This document shows positions 11,797-36,438 of a stretch of DNA of 64,000 bases, piece after piece. Where the stretch lies: sequence record PQ850613.1; one strand, written 5' to 3'. This DNA comes from Escherichia phage KarlSchell_Bas89. The position numbers and the translations under genes were made by a program. The notes beneath the pieces were generated by a model. The model did no database searches and was not told the origin of the DNA. It saw only the letters and a list, made by a program, of their open reading frames with translations. How positions within the stretch are numbered: position 1 is the first letter of the stretch; each line of letters opens with the position of its first letter.

Positions 11797-11805
11797 TAAT
11801 GTATA
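11797..11805 (+). promoter_or_regulatory. TAATGTATA promoter-like element
   Basis: Exact 9-mer 37 nt upstream of the 11842 start codon; same 9-mer and spacing upstream of a minus-strand gene at 29201. Confidence 0.45.
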
Positions 11806-21680: not shown

Positions 21681-21699
21681 TTATGTATAGTATACATTA
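21681..21699. promoter_or_regulatory. near-palindromic TTATGTATA-g-TATACATTA element (back-to-back promoter-like 9-mers)
   Basis: Minus-strand TAATGTATA about 58 nt upstream of SSB start; one-mismatch copy on plus strand. Confidence 0.4.
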
Positions 21700-21762: not shown

Positions 21763-21771
21763 TAATGTATA
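21763..21771 (+). promoter_or_regulatory. TAATGTATA promoter-like element facing an ORF-less region
   Basis: Exact 9-mer; downstream 280 nt has hairpins but no plus-strand ORF. Confidence 0.35.
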
Positions 21772-29237: not shown

Positions 29238-29246
29238 TATACATTA
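29238..29246 (-). promoter_or_regulatory. TAATGTATA promoter-like element (minus strand)
   Basis: Exact 9-mer on minus strand 37 nt upstream of 29201 start. Confidence 0.45.
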
Positions 29247-31719: not shown

Positions 31720-31974
31720 TTAAGCAGTGATCAGGTGGAGGGTAAATGGGATGACCACAGAGATAATAACCCAAGCAACAGATGCGATTTGGATTTCATT
31801 CTTCTTGTCCGGTGTCTCTTCAATAAGTTTCTTGCTGCCATAATAAACACCGCCGCCAATGAGAAGTGCCCAAATACTCCAAATGGTTGCTGATAACATA
31901 TTCAATTCCTTATAAACAAGTTCGCCCCACCTCGGATTAGGAGACAGGGCGGAGGTTTTAGTATGAGACGTCAC
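31720..31974 (-). CDS. small membrane protein (two predicted TM helices; holin-like)
   Basis: Hydrophobic segments IWSIWALLIGGGVYY and VAWVIISVVIPFTLHLI. Confidence 0.3.
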   Translation of the reverse strand: MTSHTKTSALSPNPRWGELVYKELNMLSATIWSIWALLIGGGVYYGSKKLIEETPDKKNEIQIASVAWVIISVVIPFTLHLITA

Positions 31975-32545
31975 TGGAGTGTGACATGTTACTTTTAACG
32001 AAGTAGCAATACTTGCCTAACCCTTCGTTGATTTCTTGGAGCATGCTCTGGTCAACTGGATACTCGCTCAAACATCCATCGAACTCATCCATTTTGTCAA
32101 TCATGCACATTAAAGACATGCACATATCAGAGAGCATACCATCCATATCTAGGTCTGCATTTCCTTCAGAGAACCAAGAGTGTGACAAGTAGTTAGAAGC
32201 AGTTGCATCCACCTTAATACAGTGGAAACGCATACGTTCAGCTATCCGATCACCTGTCTCACGAGCATAATCTTCCAGCTCATCAAACATTCCATGAACA
32301 CCCTGAAACCCTGCACCAGATACGTTCCAGTGATAATTCTTAGCTTTGATATGCAAGAGTTCTAAGTTAGCTTGAATACCGCATAGAATGTGTTCTAGGC
32401 TGTTTCCACTAATCATCCCTTGCATACGCTCTAAACGGGAGATAGAAGAGTCTGTTTCACGTAATACATCACGGAAAGAAGTCTCTTTTGTTAGAGTTGG
32501 TAAGTCGAAAACATTGTGATTAGACATTAGGATTTTCTCCATCAA
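31958..32545 (-). CDS. Dps/ferritin-like protein
   Basis: KNYHWNVSGAGFQGVHGMFDELEDYARETGDRIAERM resembles the Dps signature region. Confidence 0.5.
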   Translation of the reverse strand: MMEKILMSNHNVFDLPTLTKETSFRDVLRETDSSISRLERMQGMISGNSLEHILCGIQANLELLHIKAKNYHWNVSGAGFQGVHGMFDELEDYARETGDRIAERMRFHCIKVDATASNYLSHSWFSEGNADLDMDGMLSDMCMSLMCMIDKMDEFDGCLSEYPVDQSMLQEINEGLGKYCYFVKSNMSHSSDVSY

Positions 32546-32849
32546 GTTCTACTGAGTTCGCAACATTGCGTTCCAGATTTGAGATTACCTGTTGGGTGAT
32601 AACGATGCAGTTCTGTGGGTCAACTGACTTAGAACGTCCCATCTCAGGGTCATACACCTTAACACGTTTTGCTGTAGAACCAGTTACCTGTAACACCTTG
32701 AGAAGATAACCCTGATTCCCGATAGACCATGCAACAACATCACGATTCTTGATGAATCGACCAAGCATATCACGATGGTAGAACTGCTGCATAACCTTTG
32801 ATTTATTAATCTCTTCGGCTGGCGGAGCCACTTTACTCAAATCTAACAT
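32520..32849 (-). CDS. hypothetical protein
   Basis: ORF; TATACATTT (one-mismatch promoter-like 9-mer on minus) about 40 nt upstream. Confidence 0.35.
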   Translation of the reverse strand: MLDLSKVAPPAEEINKSKVMQQFYHRDMLGRFIKNRDVVAWSIGNQGYLLKVLQVTGSTAKRVKVYDPEMGRSKSVDPQNCIVITQQVISNLERNVANSVELDGENPNV

Positions 32850-32921
32850 TTCACTCTCTCCTGTTTAATACAATATTCTTATACTGTATATACATTTGAG
32901 AGTGATCATATCTACTACCAA

Positions 32922-33134
32922 TTAGTAGTAAACATATCCAGAGATATATGAGCCTTTATCCCCACTAAACTCAAACCATCGATGCATGTCAGCACGTTTA
33001 ACCGTACCGACTAGAGCTTTCATATTCTTCTTAGCAATACGAGCCTCTTTACGAGTGTTAAACAGTTTGATATTATCTTTACCTAGATGGTGTCCATCTT
33101 CCCAAACAACACGAACAGCCCACATCTTTTTCAT
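32922..33134 (-). CDS. small basic protein, member of tandem paralog trio
   Basis: MKKMWAVRVVWEDG ... YISGYVYY shared pattern with two neighbours. Confidence 0.45.
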   Translation of the reverse strand: MKKMWAVRVVWEDGHHLGKDNIKLFNTRKEARIAKKNMKALVGTVKRADMHRWFEFSGDKGSYISGYVYY

Positions 33135-33349
33135 TAGTAATGCACCTTTCCGCTGATATAAATACGGCCTGAGGTATACTCATAGCCCTTGAGAATCTTG
33201 ACAGAGGTAAGATATCCAGTGTGTAATTCACTGAACGATTTCTTAAGCCTACGTGCGCCTTCTCGTGTTTTCTGGTAGGTCATGGTCACACCCCCACTTG
33301 TCCACTCTGTTCTAACTAACCAAACTCTTTTCATAAGACCTGCTCTCAT
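33134..33349 (-). CDS. small basic protein, member of tandem paralog trio
   Basis: MKRVWLVRTEW ... IYISGKVHY. Confidence 0.45.
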   Translation of the reverse strand: MRAGLMKRVWLVRTEWTSGGVTMTYQKTREGARRLKKSFSELHTGYLTSVKILKGYEYTSGRIYISGKVHY

Positions 33350-33546
33350 TAGTAGTACACCTTGCTGCCAGCCATGAAAGCCCCTGTCGAGCTTATAATA
33401 ACCTTACTGATAGTAACTTTCTTATGCCGGAAGTATGTCTTCCAGCCCTTTTTACAGATTCGAGCTTCTTGTCGAGTCTTACAAAAGTCAGCCAAAGACA
33501 GCTCTTGGGTTTTGTTATCATAAACACGAACACACCACTTTTTCAT
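33349..33546 (-). CDS. small basic protein, member of tandem paralog trio
   Basis: MKKWCVRVYDNKT ... GSKVYY. Confidence 0.45.
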   Translation of the reverse strand: MKKWCVRVYDNKTQELSLADFCKTRQEARICKKGWKTYFRHKKVTISKVIISSTGAFMAGSKVYY

Positions 33547-34071
33547 TTATCTTTCATCCACATTAAAGGAGAGATGGAGTCTGCTTCTCATAGACTTAGC
33601 TAAAAGTTTTGCCTCTTCGAGAGTTTTCACTCCATATACAGACTCACGTTTACCATCTTTTTGAACAGAGACACAGAACGTCCCACCTTTCTCTTGGTAG
33701 ACATTCTTAATCCCTAGCTTGTTATCAACTCTGGTCTTAGCATTCTGACTATTTTCAGAGTGAGAACACTTTCTCAGGTTAATTTCTTCTAGATTCCCTC
33801 TGTTACCATCAGCGTGATCTATTTGATATTCATCCGATAAATCCTCACCAGTATAAAGAACAAAAAGAATCCTATGATTATGGACACGAACTCCTCCTAA
33901 GGGAATTTGGTAATATCCATCTTTTGTGAGTTTTCCAGCAGGTTTCCCTGCTATATCATTAGCAAATTTACTAGGCTTCCTTTTCCAAGAAAGCCCTGAC
34001 GGGGATGACATGTCTATGTTAAAAAGATCAAACACTTCATCATAGCATATCAGCATGGTTTGTTCCACCAA
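33547..34071 (-). CDS. HNH homing endonuclease with AP2-like domain
   Basis: YQIDHADGNRGNLEEINLRKCSHSENSQN. Confidence 0.75.
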   Translation of the reverse strand: MVEQTMLICYDEVFDLFNIDMSSPSGLSWKRKPSKFANDIAGKPAGKLTKDGYYQIPLGGVRVHNHRILFVLYTGEDLSDEYQIDHADGNRGNLEEINLRKCSHSENSQNAKTRVDNKLGIKNVYQEKGGTFCVSVQKDGKRESVYGVKTLEEAKLLAKSMRSRLHLSFNVDER

Positions 34072-34594
34072 AAGCTTTTGTTGGCCCTTGTTGGTTATTG
34101 TATGAACCTTTAGTTGCGTAACTATCTTCTTCAGAGGAGGAGTGTTTAAAGAACTCCATTTGACCGATACGCATTCCCGGCTTAATTAGCAAAGAGTGAT
34201 GCTGTAGGACGTTCTTGAATTCCATAGTAAGTTGGCTCCCATGCCACCCACCGTCAGCATGACCAGCGTGCATGTGCTCTAAGAAGCAACGACCAACAGT
34301 GGACCGTAACATGAAGTCACAACTAATATTATCTGGCAGGTTGAATGTCTCCACTGTATGAGCCAAGAAGCACTCACCCGGTTTGATAACTAAACCTTCT
34401 TCTGGAATCATAACCTCGTTGAAGTTAGGAGACTCTTTAGCGGAGATATCAACAACCCCATTAGCTGCTCCTTCCATCAGAACACGGTCTCCAATACGAA
34501 CATCAATACTGGAGGAGTTAACAGCTGAGTGAGGTGCATCAATAACACCATCATCGATTAGTTTATGTAATTCCGGACTTCCTAATAAACTCAT
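34040..34594 (-). CDS. dcd: dCTP deaminase-like (dUTPase superfamily)
   Basis: N-terminus and length resemble Dcd; beta-rich, Gly-rich loops. Confidence 0.6.
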   Translation of the reverse strand: MSLLGSPELHKLIDDGVIDAPHSAVNSSSIDVRIGDRVLMEGAANGVVDISAKESPNFNEVMIPEEGLVIKPGECFLAHTVETFNLPDNISCDFMLRSTVGRCFLEHMHAGHADGGWHGSQLTMEFKNVLQHHSLLIKPGMRIGQMEFFKHSSSEEDSYATKGSYNNQQGPTKAFGGTNHADML

Positions 34595-34608
34595 TCTTAT
34601 TCCTTGTA

Positions 34609-35889
34609 TTAATCTGCGATACTATCGCTTTCATCAACCCAGACTGTACCATTAACCTGTCTTAGACGACGAGCTGACGCTTCGTTAATAGAGTTAACCC
34701 CTGCTGTGCGAGGGTTTGTGTACCAAGGTCGAGCTATGGTGCCCTCTCGAATCACTTGGTTCGTTTCGACATGCCATCTGTTTGATACCATGTTGGCTTC
34801 AAAGTTACCACCCGCTCCACCACTGATAGGCACAGCTTGAGCTGGTTGGTTTACTCGGTTAGTTCCTGCCCCAAAGGATGCTGCAAATTCAGACATACGT
34901 GCATCAAATGCAGAACGAACACGCTGAGTAGGTGATATATCATTTCGTGTATCTACTGCACGAGGCATAGCCCAAGTATCATCTGTTGAGATATCAGGGG
35001 TAGGCTCTTGCTCTAGAGGTTGAAGATTAGCTGTCCATTGACTGTTCAGTATACGATAGAAATCTGCACCATAACCACTTCGGATAACATCTTCTCTGAT
35101 ACCAAAAAAGCGACTAATATCTCCACCGATTCGGGCCAACTTATCGTTGTATGTAGATACAGATACCCCACTTTCTGTTACTAAGTCAGAAACACGACTT
35201 GTTGTAAGTGGTGAGTTATTCCAACAATAATAGTCAGTAATGTGGCCGTCATACCCAAAGTATGCAACCTCTGCATCAGGCCATTTCTTGTGGACATATG
35301 CCACTTCGCGAGTAGAACAAACAGGGATTGCGCCTGTTTCAGTCATTGCATAGAAGCCGTCAGAAGAGAACCAAAGTGAGTCTAGTGCTAAGAATCCACG
35401 ACACACACTTGGGAAAGTAGCAGCCAGCGCCCCAAGTGAGGTGGGTTCGTTGAACATTAACTGAACCTTTGCACCCTGATAATCAATCTCTAGGATATCT
35501 ACAAAATTCAAAGAAGACCCAGGGGCATATTGACTATTACTTCGTCCAATATCCTGCTCAACAAGAAGAGATCTTGTTTCAACACCATGAGCCTCTGCCC
35601 ACTCTTTGAAATCTTCAAGGAACAAGCGAGCCTTAGCTCGCCACATCGACCGATCAGTTACGGATTGTCTCGGCAATCCGCCCTCTGTAGTGATGAGGAA
35701 GATATCAATGTCATGGGGCTCACGCGTCTGGAAGATTGCATCCCTAACAGCACCACCTGCAATGATAGGGTACACACCATCAGGGATTAAACGGTTTGCA
35801 ATCAACTCGTTAATTAACGTAAGACCAGACATAAGCTGCGGACTGTCATCAATCCGACGACGAATTAGTGCATTAGGGATATTATACAT
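34609..35889 (-). CDS. nucleotidyltransferase with Pol-beta/CCA-adding-type head motif
   Basis: IIAGGAVRDAIFQTREPHDIDIF matches GGxVRD...DxD; start ATG directly abuts the stop of the exonuclease gene. Confidence 0.45.
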   Translation of the reverse strand: MYNIPNALIRRRIDDSPQLMSGLTLINELIANRLIPDGVYPIIAGGAVRDAIFQTREPHDIDIFLITTEGGLPRQSVTDRSMWRAKARLFLEDFKEWAEAHGVETRSLLVEQDIGRSNSQYAPGSSLNFVDILEIDYQGAKVQLMFNEPTSLGALAATFPSVCRGFLALDSLWFSSDGFYAMTETGAIPVCSTREVAYVHKKWPDAEVAYFGYDGHITDYYCWNNSPLTTSRVSDLVTESGVSVSTYNDKLARIGGDISRFFGIREDVIRSGYGADFYRILNSQWTANLQPLEQEPTPDISTDDTWAMPRAVDTRNDISPTQRVRSAFDARMSEFAASFGAGTNRVNQPAQAVPISGGAGGNFEANMVSNRWHVETNQVIREGTIARPWYTNPRTAGVNSINEASARRLRQVNGTVWVDESDSIAD

Positions 35890-36438
35890 TTACATTTTCC
35901 AATATAAAGATGGGGGGTCATTTGGGTCAAAGTTTGCAATATGACAAAGATATTTATAAACCTTAACCGTTAAGTTTACATCCTGTTCACAATAAGTAAA
36001 CATGTCCTCTGTAAAGGCATCCCATGCTTCTTCCTGTTCACCGTAATCACCCTTAAGCTCTTCTAAGAACTCACCCCATTGCTTTAAGCCATGACCTCTT
36101 GGGCCATGTCTAGGGTCGCCTTTCGGATACTCAGGACTGTCACCAATACGGTCAGGTTTAAGATACCGACTCAGACATAAAGTGTCTAGGACGTTGAATT
36201 TGTAATCAATCAAATCAGGGTACATCTTCTTCAGAGCACATAAGTCGAAGTCAATAACGTTATGACCTACAACAACATCAGCCTCTGTAAGTTTCTTGAT
36301 ACCCTCTTCAATCTGGTGAGGACGAAATCCCCACCGTTCACCAGTTGCTATATCAAAGATAAAGATACACCATACGTTTGTGATATCGTCGTACAGTGCA
36401 TCACTCTCAATATCAAATGCGTAGACTTTCTTTACCAC
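35890..36438 (-). CDS. DNA polymerase 3'-5' exonuclease domain protein (T7 gp5 N-terminal-domain-like), separate gene
   Basis: [11 protein letters not shown] (Exo I), [14 protein letters not shown] (Exo II), YCEQDVNLT (Exo III) align with the T7 gp5 N-terminus as recalled. Confidence 0.75.

What the first reader, a model, noticed from the sequence alone, without database searches (positions are those of the whole stretch)
32922..33546. Tandem triplication of a small basic protein
Three adjacent ORFs of 65-71 aa abut each other with start/stop overlaps and share M-K-K/R...W-x-V-R near the N-terminus and a C-terminal YISG/K-V-Y/H-Y motif, while being otherwise diverged. Tandem diversified small genes in phages are often host-interaction or anti-defence factors.
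Basis: seen in the sequence. Interest (0 to 1): 0.45.

Follow-up and report, generated by a model that had tools for sequence, protein, structure and literature searches.

The report
Three old paralogs, unknown small phage protein
Three back-to-back genes in a phiEco32-like E. coli phage encode anciently diverged copies of one small, strongly basic protein; the family occurs almost only in this phage group, its function is unknown, and the array is real but only moderately unusual.

Summary
Three minus-strand ORFs (33349-33546, 33134-33349, 32922-33134) are joined by 1-nt TAATG stop/start overlaps. Each matches PHROG 4939 (unknown function) over its full length at E 1e-21 to 1e-23. The window is a phiEco32-like podovirus (Gordonclarkvirinae), and the genes are the orthologs of phiEco32 gp71/gp70/gp69.

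This is not a recent triplication. Copies cluster by array position across phages, at about 30% identity between positions. The slot between dCTP deaminase and the conserved gp68 homolog holds 1, 2 or 3 copies in different relatives. All copies are under purifying selection (dN/dS about 0.2-0.36), and no 8-codon window exceeds 1.

My best guess, inferred rather than shown, is a small nucleic-acid-binding accessory factor of the replication/nucleotide-metabolism block. Interest is modest.

The parts
33349..33546 (-). Copy A, 65 aa, pI 9.97. Ortholog of phiEco32 gp71. This is the accessory position of the array, present in about two thirds of relatives.
   Evidence: ORF. PHROG 4939 at E 7e-23. 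AF2 pLDDT 92.3 with a beta-beta-alpha-beta-beta fold. Clusters with the position-1 copies of KBNP1711, phiEco32, O18-011 and NJ01. tblastn finds it in 64 phage records.
33134..33349 (-). Copy B, 71 aa from the TAATG-coupled start, or 66 aa from Met6 at 33334. The 66-aa form has pI 10.19. Ortholog of phiEco32 gp70.
   Evidence: ORF. PHROG 4939 at E 3e-21 over residues 6-71. tblastn finds it in 98 phage records. Clusters with the position-2 copies. Junction sequence.
32922..33134 (-). Copy C, 70 aa, pI 9.99. Ortholog of phiEco32 gp69 and the last gene before the gp68 promoter.
   Evidence: ORF. PHROG 4939 at E 2e-22. AF2 pLDDT 86. tblastn finds it in 93 phage records. 97% identical to the phage NC-B copy.
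33346..33368 (-). A/B junction: AAGGTG (Shine-Dalgarno, within the K-V codons of A), 8 nt, then TAATG (stop of A overlapping the start of B).
   Evidence: Sequence. One member of the 23-nt direct repeat D1.
33131..33153 (-). B/C junction with the same architecture (GGAAAGGTGCATTACTAATG).
   Evidence: Sequence. Reference copy of repeat D1, spacing 215 nt. Synonymous diversity falls to 0.16 here.
32889..32896 (-). AATGTATA, the core of the phiEco32 gp36-sigma promoter motif (tAATGTAtA). It lies in the 72-nt gap between copy C and the gp68 homolog and marks the end of the transcription unit that carries the trio.
   Evidence: Pattern match. phiEco32 gene 68 lies downstream of a gp36-dependent promoter (PMC8948821; PMC4281155). 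The function of this site in this phage is inferred, not shown.
32520..32849 (-). Context: gp68 homolog (109 aa, PHROG 10984, unknown function), the conserved downstream boundary of the slot.
   Evidence: 88-96% aa identity in E. coli relatives and 82-87% in distant uncultured relatives.
34040..34594 (-). Context: dCTP deaminase, the conserved upstream boundary of the slot.
   Evidence: Annotated as dCTP deaminase in the relatives. PF22769 DCD in the uncultured relatives.
33547..34071 (-). Context: HNH homing endonuclease inserted between the dCTP deaminase gene and copy A. It is not part of the family.
   Evidence: PF13392 HNH_3 at E 2e-8 and PHROG 99 at E 5e-41. Absent at this place in phiEco32 and KBNP1711. 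hhalign against the family gives probability 4.8%.

Best explanation
**What it is (shown).** These are three real, co-oriented, translationally coupled genes. They are the orthologs of phiEco32 gp71, gp70 and gp69 and encode three anciently diverged paralogs of one phage-restricted family (PHROG 4939). Each protein is about 8 kDa with pI near 10, and the two copies modelled (A and C) have a confidently predicted beta-beta-alpha-beta-beta fold. The genes occupy a fixed slot between the dCTP deaminase gene and the gp68 homolog. This is the distal end of the leftward early/middle transcription unit that also carries primase-helicase, the DNA polymerase exonuclease subunit, a nucleotidyltransferase and dCTP deaminase. 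The ancestral state was probably one gene, since single-copy relatives exist. Duplications predate the radiation of the E. coli phiEco32-like phages, and copies were later lost in some lineages.

**How it most likely works (inferred).** Each copy is a small nucleic-acid-binding accessory protein. In a helical-wheel projection, the invariant R28, R32 and K35, with the usually basic positions 36 and 39, line up as one basic stripe on the helix, about 120 degrees from its buried face (A31, A34, M38, L41). That stripe would contact a phosphate backbone. The variable beta1-beta2 loop, helix-beta3 linker and beta3-beta4 hairpin would differentiate the paralogs. Tight TAATG coupling implies near-equimolar synthesis and allows a hetero-oligomer. 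A single copy suffices in some relatives. The target (DNA or RNA; replication, transcription or translation) is not determined.
For: **Identity and paralogy.**
- PHROG 4939 hits are and the family alignments.
- The NJ tree groups copies by array position.
- phiEco32 gp69-71 occupy the same slot.

**Real genes.**
- dN/dS is 0.2-0.36 in all three orthologous groups.
- A Shine-Dalgarno sequence and a TAATG junction join the genes.
- The ORFs are intact in 64-98 phage records.

**Conserved slot.** The order dcd, then 1-3 copies, then gp68, then the Dps-like gene holds in distant uncultured relatives:
- L012 has 1 copy.
- L014 has 2 copies.
- L016 has 3 copies.
- Cultured phage Bas93 has 1 copy.

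**Fold.** pLDDT is 86 for C and 92 for A, with the same topology.

**Pointers to nucleic-acid binding.**
- Every member is basic, pI 9.4-11.
- The invariant residues include three basic side chains spaced i, i+4, i+7 on the helix, conserved across all paralogs down to about 25% identity.
- The helix region is the most constrained part (pN/pS 0.14-0.4), while the loops are nearly neutral.
- Every family member found, including the extra 'D' copies and the Aeromonas LAh_9 member, lies among replication and nucleotide-metabolism genes.
Against: - Basic charge and conserved Arg/Lys could equally serve an acidic protein partner or internal salt bridges.
- Variable copy number, a patchy A copy and a possibly disrupted C copy in XT32 show that individual copies are dispensable.
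- The SU10 lysate/virion proteome listed gp67, gp68 and thioredoxin but not these proteins. Small basic proteins are poorly detected by mass spectrometry, so this says little.
Confidence: 0.4

Rival explanations
1. Host-takeover or anti-defence inhibitors. Each paralog binds and blocks a host protein, for example a defence effector or a nucleoid or nucleotide-pool factor. Duplication and divergence broaden the range of targets.
For: - The proteins are small and phage-only. None was found in 185,579 bacterial and archaeal genomes.
- Only 28 clusters at 50% identity exist among 1.8 billion proteins.
- Copy number varies from 1 to 3 in the slot, with an occasional extra 'D' copy elsewhere.
- Distinct alleles exist at each position, and copy C has several different C-terminal hairpin sequences.
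- Loops evolve at pN/pS 0.6-0.9.
- The unit is transcribed from the early end of the genome (PMC4281155).
Against: - No window has pN/pS above 1.
- B and C are near-universal in the E. coli group (98 and 93 records, against about 95 with a close gp68 homolog).
- The position is strictly syntenic inside the replication/nucleotide block, even in relatives with 25-35% identity.
- All paralogs share the same invariant basic surface, which suggests one common ligand class.
- DNA-mimic inhibitors such as Ocr, p56 and Ugi are acidic, whereas these proteins are basic.
Confidence: 0.25
2. Protein-binding adaptor or regulatory subunit for the phage's own replication or nucleotide-metabolism enzymes. Candidates are dCTP deaminase, ThyX, thioredoxin, the DNA polymerase, primase-helicase, gp68 and the Dps-like protein. 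The basic helix and C-terminal Tyr-Tyr would dock onto an acidic patch.
For: - The genes are adjacent to dcd and gp68 in all phiEco32-like phages and uncultured relatives examined.
- The extra copies sit beside thioredoxin and ThyX, and the LAh_9 member lies two genes upstream of thymidylate synthase.
- Translational coupling suggests fixed stoichiometry.
- The C-terminal aromatic residue is nearly invariant.
Against: - Synteny in phage modules is weak evidence for physical interaction.
- The neighbouring dcd and nucleotidyltransferase alleles are swapped by recombination independently of the array. The window's dcd is 100% identical to O18-011's, yet its copies A and B resemble those of KBNP1711.
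- The 7-11, Privateervirus P59 and A24 phages keep dcd and gp68 but had no family member within about 4 kb of gp68.
Confidence: 0.15
3. Chance ORFs or decaying duplicates with no function.
For: The proteins are very small and have no annotated function. A-B pairwise similarity is marginal. One relative has a truncated copy (P0048; XT32).
Against: - Profile E-values are 1e-21 or better.
- The reading frames are conserved in 64-98 genomes.
- dN/dS is well below 1.
- The fold is confidently predicted.
- Shine-Dalgarno and TAATG coupling are conserved.
Confidence: 0.02

Closest known systems
phiEco32 gp69, gp70, gp71 (phi32_69-71) / PHROG 4939
   Same: Same family, same order, same slot between dCTP deaminase (gp72) and gp68. 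Lengths are 64-71 aa. The window copies are 60%, 50% and 52% identical to gp69, gp70 and gp71.
   Different: The window carries different alleles at positions A and B, closest to KBNP1711 and NC-B. It also has an HNH endonuclease inserted upstream. Neither the phiEco32 genes nor the PHROG has an assigned function, and the papers I could search do not mention the paralogy.
AP2-type DNA-binding domain at the C-terminus of HNH homing endonucleases (such as the adjacent gene)
   Same: Both have a beta-hairpin followed by a helix that starts with T-x-x-E-A and carries basic residues. By eye, the motif resembles KGGTFCVSVQKDGKRESVYGVKTLEEAKLLAK in the neighbouring HNH protein.
Phage phi29/PZA p56 (uracil-DNA glycosylase inhibitor)
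   Same: A very small phage alpha/beta protein, and several p56 chains appear among the weak Foldseek hits. Like the family here, it concerns dU/dT metabolism.
   Different: Foldseek E is 0.84-2.1 with TM 0.37-0.45, which is not significant. From my own knowledge, p56 is an acidic DNA mimic, whereas this family has pI near 10.
Tandem arrays of diverged small ORFan genes in phage early regions (for example anti-CRISPR/anti-defence loci)
   Same: Adjacent, short, translationally coupled, diverged genes with variable copy number.
   Different: - The copies here are homologous to each other.
- They are near-universal in the clade and syntenic within the replication/nucleotide-metabolism block.
- They are under purifying selection.
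- Pfam found no helix-turn-helix or any other domain in the downstream neighbour gp68, so there is no sign of an HTH regulator next to the array.

Membership tests
PHROG 4939 (unknown function) | Significant full-length match to the family HMM | tested here: met
   E 7.3e-23 (A, residues 1-65 on profile positions 2-67), 3.3e-21 (B, residues 6-71), 2.2e-22 (C, residues 1-70).
phiEco32 gp69-gp71 orthologous groups | Same genomic slot (dCTP deaminase to gp68) and clustering with the copy at the same array position | tested here: met
   Synteny. The NJ tree groups copies by position.
phiEco32 gp69-gp71 orthologous groups | Expression in the early or middle class, as measured for phiEco32 | not testable with these tools
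   Only a promoter motif is present, downstream of copy C. The papers disagree on whether genes 69-79 count as early or middle.
AP2 / HNH-associated DNA-binding domain | Profile-level sequence similarity to the domain | tested here: not met
   hhalign probability 4.8% against the adjacent HNH-AP2-like protein. No PF00847 hit in 32 members at E up to 10.
AP2 / HNH-associated DNA-binding domain | Three-stranded sheet plus helix fold recovered by structure search | tested here: not met
Known anti-defence / anti-restriction proteins | Homology to a characterised inhibitor family | not testable with these tools
   No anti-defence library was available. Pfam, NCBIfam, PADLOC (which covers defence, not anti-defence) and PDB searches were all negative.
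Known anti-defence / anti-restriction proteins | Patchy, accessory distribution and signs of diversifying selection | tested here: inconclusive
   B and C are near-universal, whereas A and D are patchy. pN/pS is below 1 in every 8-codon window, with a maximum of 0.88.
p56-type UDG inhibitors | Significant fold match and an acidic DNA-mimic surface | tested here: not met
   Foldseek E at least 0.84. pI 9.97-10.19.
Ribosomal protein uL22-like | Significant profile match | tested here: not met
   Best PDB profile hit E 0.6 over 38 columns.

The most novel reading that the evidence does not exclude
The family is a previously undescribed, phage-restricted nucleic-acid-binding fold. Its paralogs assemble into a hetero-oligomer with a specific role in the phiEco32-type infection programme. 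One example would be acting at the early-to-middle boundary just upstream of the gp36-dependent gene-68 promoter; another would be acting on the replication origin or primer. Alternatively, the paralogs are a diversified set of basic inhibitors aimed at a host nucleotide-pool or nucleic-acid-targeting defence.
Probability: 0.12. Interest if true: 0.55.

Novelty: new member of a known kind. Interest (0 to 1): 0.3.

Why it matters
phiEco32-like (Kuravirus-group) phages are widely isolated as therapeutic candidates against pathogenic E. coli, and about two thirds of their genes have no function. This array is a compact, near-universal feature of the group. It offers an 8-kDa family with a confident predicted fold, no solved relative, a clearly defined invariant surface and natural 1-, 2- and 3-copy variants. 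That makes it an easy target for deletion, binding and structural experiments. If it proved to be a new nucleic-acid-binding module or a new inhibitor class, it would add a small entry to the phage protein repertoire. If not, it remains an ordinary lineage-specific expansion.

Tried and rejected
- **Any known domain.** Pfam at E up to 10 on 32 members, NCBIfam and PADLOC all found nothing.
- **Solved-structure relatives by sequence.** The best hits were E 0.07 (proline dipeptidase, no stretch significant on its own) and E 0.6 (uL22).
- **Positive selection.** It was absent in halves and in 8-codon windows.
- **Cellular homologs or prophage copies.** None in GTDB representative genomes. IMG/VR held only 4 loci, all known isolates. 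Metagenomes held only 8 close relatives.
- **Large proteins among the representative-search hits** (P0053, P0058, P0067, P0068). P0053 is an Ig-repeat autotransporter, P0058 and P0068 have only sub-threshold hits to unrelated families, and P0067 has none. I treated them as spurious repeat matches.
- **RNA elements or inverted repeats in the region.** None.
- **Literature.** I found no mention of phi32_69-71 or of the paralogy in the searchable library.
- **Technical notes.** The first dN/dS script timed out and was replaced by my own Nei-Gojobori code. The family-wide alignment A3 was too diverse for pattern scanning, so A2 was used.

Full report
**1. What is in the sequence**

On the minus strand, the ORF listing gives three abutting ORFs:
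- A, 33349-33546, 65 aa
- B, 33134-33349, 71 aa
- C, 32922-33134, 70 aa

Each junction reads TAATG, so the stop of the upstream gene shares one base with the next ATG. An AAGGTG Shine-Dalgarno sequence sits 8 nt upstream of each downstream start, encoded by the Lys-Val codons of the conserved C-terminal K-V-(Y/H)-Y. The two junctions form a 23-nt direct repeat 215 nt apart. The 5' ends of A and C form another repeat.

B has a second in-frame ATG at 33334 (Met6). That start puts MKRVW in register with MKK(M)W of the other copies, and many database homologs are called from it. The junction architecture favours 33349, so the true start is open.

Upstream lie an HNH homing endonuclease (33547-34071) and dCTP deaminase (34040-34594). 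Downstream, after a 72-nt gap, lie a 109-aa conserved protein (32520-32849), a Dps/ferritin-like protein and thioredoxin.

**2. Is the similarity more than chance?**

Yes. All three match PHROG 4939 (unknown function) over their full length, at E 7e-23, 3e-21 and 2e-22.

| Pair | BLASTP E-value | Shuffle z | Shuffles reaching the score, of 3000 |
|---|---|---|---|
| B-C | 5e-7 | 10.5 | 0 |
| A-C | 5e-5 | 5.9 | 2 |
| A-B | no hit | 2.5 | 72 |

The pairwise A-B link is marginal, and paralogy of A and B rests on the profile.

Across 35 diverse members the invariant residues are W5, T27, R28, R32 and K35, and A31 is nearly invariant. The last residue is Tyr in 31 of the 35 members (copy C numbering). 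The proteins are basic (pI 9.97-10.19), as is every family member examined (9.4-11.0).

**3. Which phage, and what do relatives show?**

Megablast places the window among the phiEco32-like podoviruses of E. coli (Gordonclarkvirinae: Kuravirus, Nieuwekanaalvirus, Suseptimavirus). In phiEco32 itself the same slot holds phi32_71, phi32_70 and phi32_69 between dCTP deaminase (gp72) and gp68.

tblastn against 50,697 phage records finds the three copies only in Escherichia/Shigella phages of this group and in a few records named only 'phage':
- B-type copies in 98 records
- C-type copies in 93 records
- A-type copies in 64 records
- for comparison, about 95 records carry a close gp68 homolog

An HMM scan of fetched loci gives these copy numbers in the slot:
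- Three copies: the window, phiEco32, KBNP1711, O18-011, NJ01, EP335, PE006, Paul
- Two copies: 1-6af, SU7, ECBP2, EK010, NC-B, EcoN5. For pEC-N1203-2Af.1, B and C were found, but the record begins 167 nt upstream of B, so a copy A could not be checked.
- One copy: Bas93

Some phages carry a further, very divergent 'D' copy between thioredoxin and ThyX (KBNP1711, NJ01, ECBP2, NC-B). The window does not.

Three distant uncultured relatives keep the order primase-helicase, pol-exo, nucleotidyltransferase, dCTP deaminase, [family], gp68, Dps-like, thioredoxin, ThyX. Their family members are only about 25-35% identical to the window's. They hold one, two and three copies respectively (L012, L014, L016).

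Aeromonas phage LAh_9 has one member two genes upstream of thymidylate synthase. Salmonella phage 7-11, Proteus phage Vb_PmiP-P59 (genus Privateervirus) and Cronobacter phage A24 have none within about 4 kb of gp68.

**4. Age of the duplication**

A neighbour-joining tree groups copies by array position, not by phage. The duplications therefore predate the divergence of the E. coli genera. The window shows three old paralogs, not a recent triplication. DNA-level repeat signal survives only at gene ends and junctions.

**5. Selection**

Nei-Gojobori dN/dS between orthologs is 0.17-0.36 for A, has a median of 0.28 for B, and a median of 0.26 for C.

Splitting the genes into halves or sliding 8-codon windows never gives pN/pS above 1; the maximum is 0.88. 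The helix and core strands are the most constrained (0.14-0.4). The beta1-beta2 loop, the helix-beta3 linker and the beta3-beta4 hairpin are nearly neutral (0.6-0.9). Copy C exists with several quite different C-terminal hairpin sequences.

Synonymous diversity collapses at the 3' end of B and at the 5' end of A (pS 0.10-0.16). This is consistent with overlapping translation-initiation signals.

The neighbourhood as a whole is mosaic:

| Gene in the window | Closest relatives (aa identity) | Other relatives |
|---|---|---|
| dCTP deaminase | O18-011 and 1-6af, 100% | 56-59% |
| Nucleotidyltransferase | KBNP1711, 91% | 31-41% |
| gp68 homolog | 88-96% in the E. coli phages, 82-87% in the uncultured relatives | |

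**6. Structure**

AlphaFold2 with family alignments gives confident models with the same beta-beta-alpha-beta-beta order: copy C at pLDDT 86 and pTM 0.72, and copy A at pLDDT 92.3 and pTM 0.77.
- Foldseek against the PDB has nothing below E 0.48.
- BFVD returns family members plus weak hits in related phages (SE131, LAh_8, vB_CsaP_009, GAP52), all uncharacterised.
- Profile searches of PDB sequences give nothing significant.

I had no access to coordinates. From helical periodicity, A31, A34, M38 and L41 form the buried face. The basic residues at positions 28, 32, 35, 36 and 39 (R28, R32 and K35 invariant) form a continuous stripe about 120 degrees away. This is inference.

**7. Distribution outside phages**

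The family is very narrow.
- A profile search of 1.84 billion representative proteins finds 28 clusters, four of which are long proteins I treat as spurious matches.
- The 5.8-billion-protein collection yields under 50 clusters at 90% identity, on contigs whose longest examples are about 77 kb.
- No relative exists in 185,579 bacterial and archaeal species genomes.
- IMG/VR holds 4 loci and JGI metagenomes hold 8, all close relatives.

**8. Transcriptional context**

The core of the phiEco32 gp36-sigma promoter motif (tAATGTAtA) occurs at 32889-32896 on the minus strand, in the gap between copy C and the gp68 homolog. In phiEco32, gene 68 lies behind one of the six mapped gp36-dependent promoters (PMC8948821; PMC4281155).

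The trio therefore ends the upstream leftward unit. The papers disagree on its class. The SU10 paper counts CDS 25-68 as middle, which makes 69 onward early. The YF01 paper counts the whole replication block as middle. No terminator-like site separates the trio from gp68. Rfam finds nothing.

**9. Interpretation**

Shown: these are real, coupled, paralogous genes of a clade-restricted family, in a fixed slot of the replication/nucleotide-metabolism block. They are under purifying selection and have a compact, confidently predicted fold with no solved relative.

Inferred: four observations point to a common, conserved, negatively charged ligand, most simply nucleic acid.
- Every member is basic.
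- All paralogs share the Arg/Arg/Lys stripe on the helix.
- The genes stay in one place among replication and nucleotide-metabolism genes.
- There is no arms-race signature.

On this reading the variable loops differentiate the paralogs. I put about 0.4 on this mechanism; the identity part I hold at about 0.95.

It has no positive evidence.

A protein-adaptor role for neighbouring phage enzymes (0.15) is also open.

The AP2-domain resemblance I noticed by eye to the adjacent HNH endonuclease failed its test (hhalign probability 4.8%).

**10. Novelty and interest**

The genes are already deposited as hypothetical proteins, and the family is catalogued as PHROG 4939. None of the papers I could search mentions the paralogy or any function.

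It is a lineage-specific expansion of a small ORFan family, which is a familiar kind of thing in phage genomes. Its merit is that it is clean, near-universal in a therapeutically relevant phage group and easy to test. Interest is about 0.3.

Noticed in passing
window 33547-34071 (-): A free-standing HNH homing endonuclease (PF13392, PHROG 99) sits between the dCTP deaminase gene and copy A, and overlaps the 3' end of the deaminase gene by 32 nt. The same insertion is present in O18-011, EcoN5 and ES17. It is absent in phiEco32, KBNP1711 and Paul.
   Followed up: partly
window 34040-35889 (-) compared with L001-L008: The block is strongly mosaic. The window's dCTP deaminase is 100% identical (aa) to that of O18-011 and 1-6af but only 56-59% to other relatives. 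The nucleotidyltransferase is 91% identical to KBNP1711's and 31-41% to others. gp68 stays at 88-96%. Whole genes appear to be exchanged as alleles.
   Followed up: partly
L003 854-1102, L008 6004-6273, L006 5069-5296, L007 5068-5295: A fourth, very divergent family member ('D' copy, 67-71 aa) lies between thioredoxin and ThyX in KBNP1711, NJ01, ECBP2 and NC-B. The window has no such copy.
   Followed up: partly
L024 1095-1292 (PE006); the Dps-like gene in L021, L024, L025 and L036: Public annotation errors. PE006 labels the 65-aa copy A 'deoxycytidine triphosphate deaminase'. Several records call the Dps/ferritin-like gene (window 31958-32545) an 'integrase'.
   Followed up: no
L036 1301-1963 (phage XT32); protein P0048: In XT32 the copy C and gp68 region is flagged as a disrupted 'similar to hypothetical protein' feature, and tblastn covers only residues 1-36 of C. 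P0048 is a 48-aa truncated C-type protein from a metagenome. These are either real loss or sequencing error.
   Followed up: no
window 33131-33153 and 33346-33368; 3' end of copy B and 5' end of copy A: Synonymous diversity drops to 0.10-0.16 at the 3' end of copy B and the 5' end of copy A, against 0.4-0.7 elsewhere. This indicates RNA-level constraint (Shine-Dalgarno and coupling signals) superimposed on the conserved C-terminal K-V-Y-Y codons.
   Followed up: partly
window 35883-35890 (-), 29238-29245 (-), 21691-21698 (-), 21764-21771 (+), 11798-11805 (+): Five further exact AATGTATA matches (the gp36-sigma promoter core) occur in the window. One lies right at the start codon of the nucleotidyltransferase gene. 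Six matches against 2.5 expected is not significant on its own.
   Followed up: no
window 32520-32849 (-): The gp68 homolog (109 aa, PHROG 10984) is the most conserved gene of the neighbourhood. It is 82-96% identical in the phiEco32-like phages and uncultured relatives and about 35% in 7-11, Proteus and Aeromonas phages. It has no Pfam domain and no known function. It was detected in the SU10 proteome.
   Followed up: no
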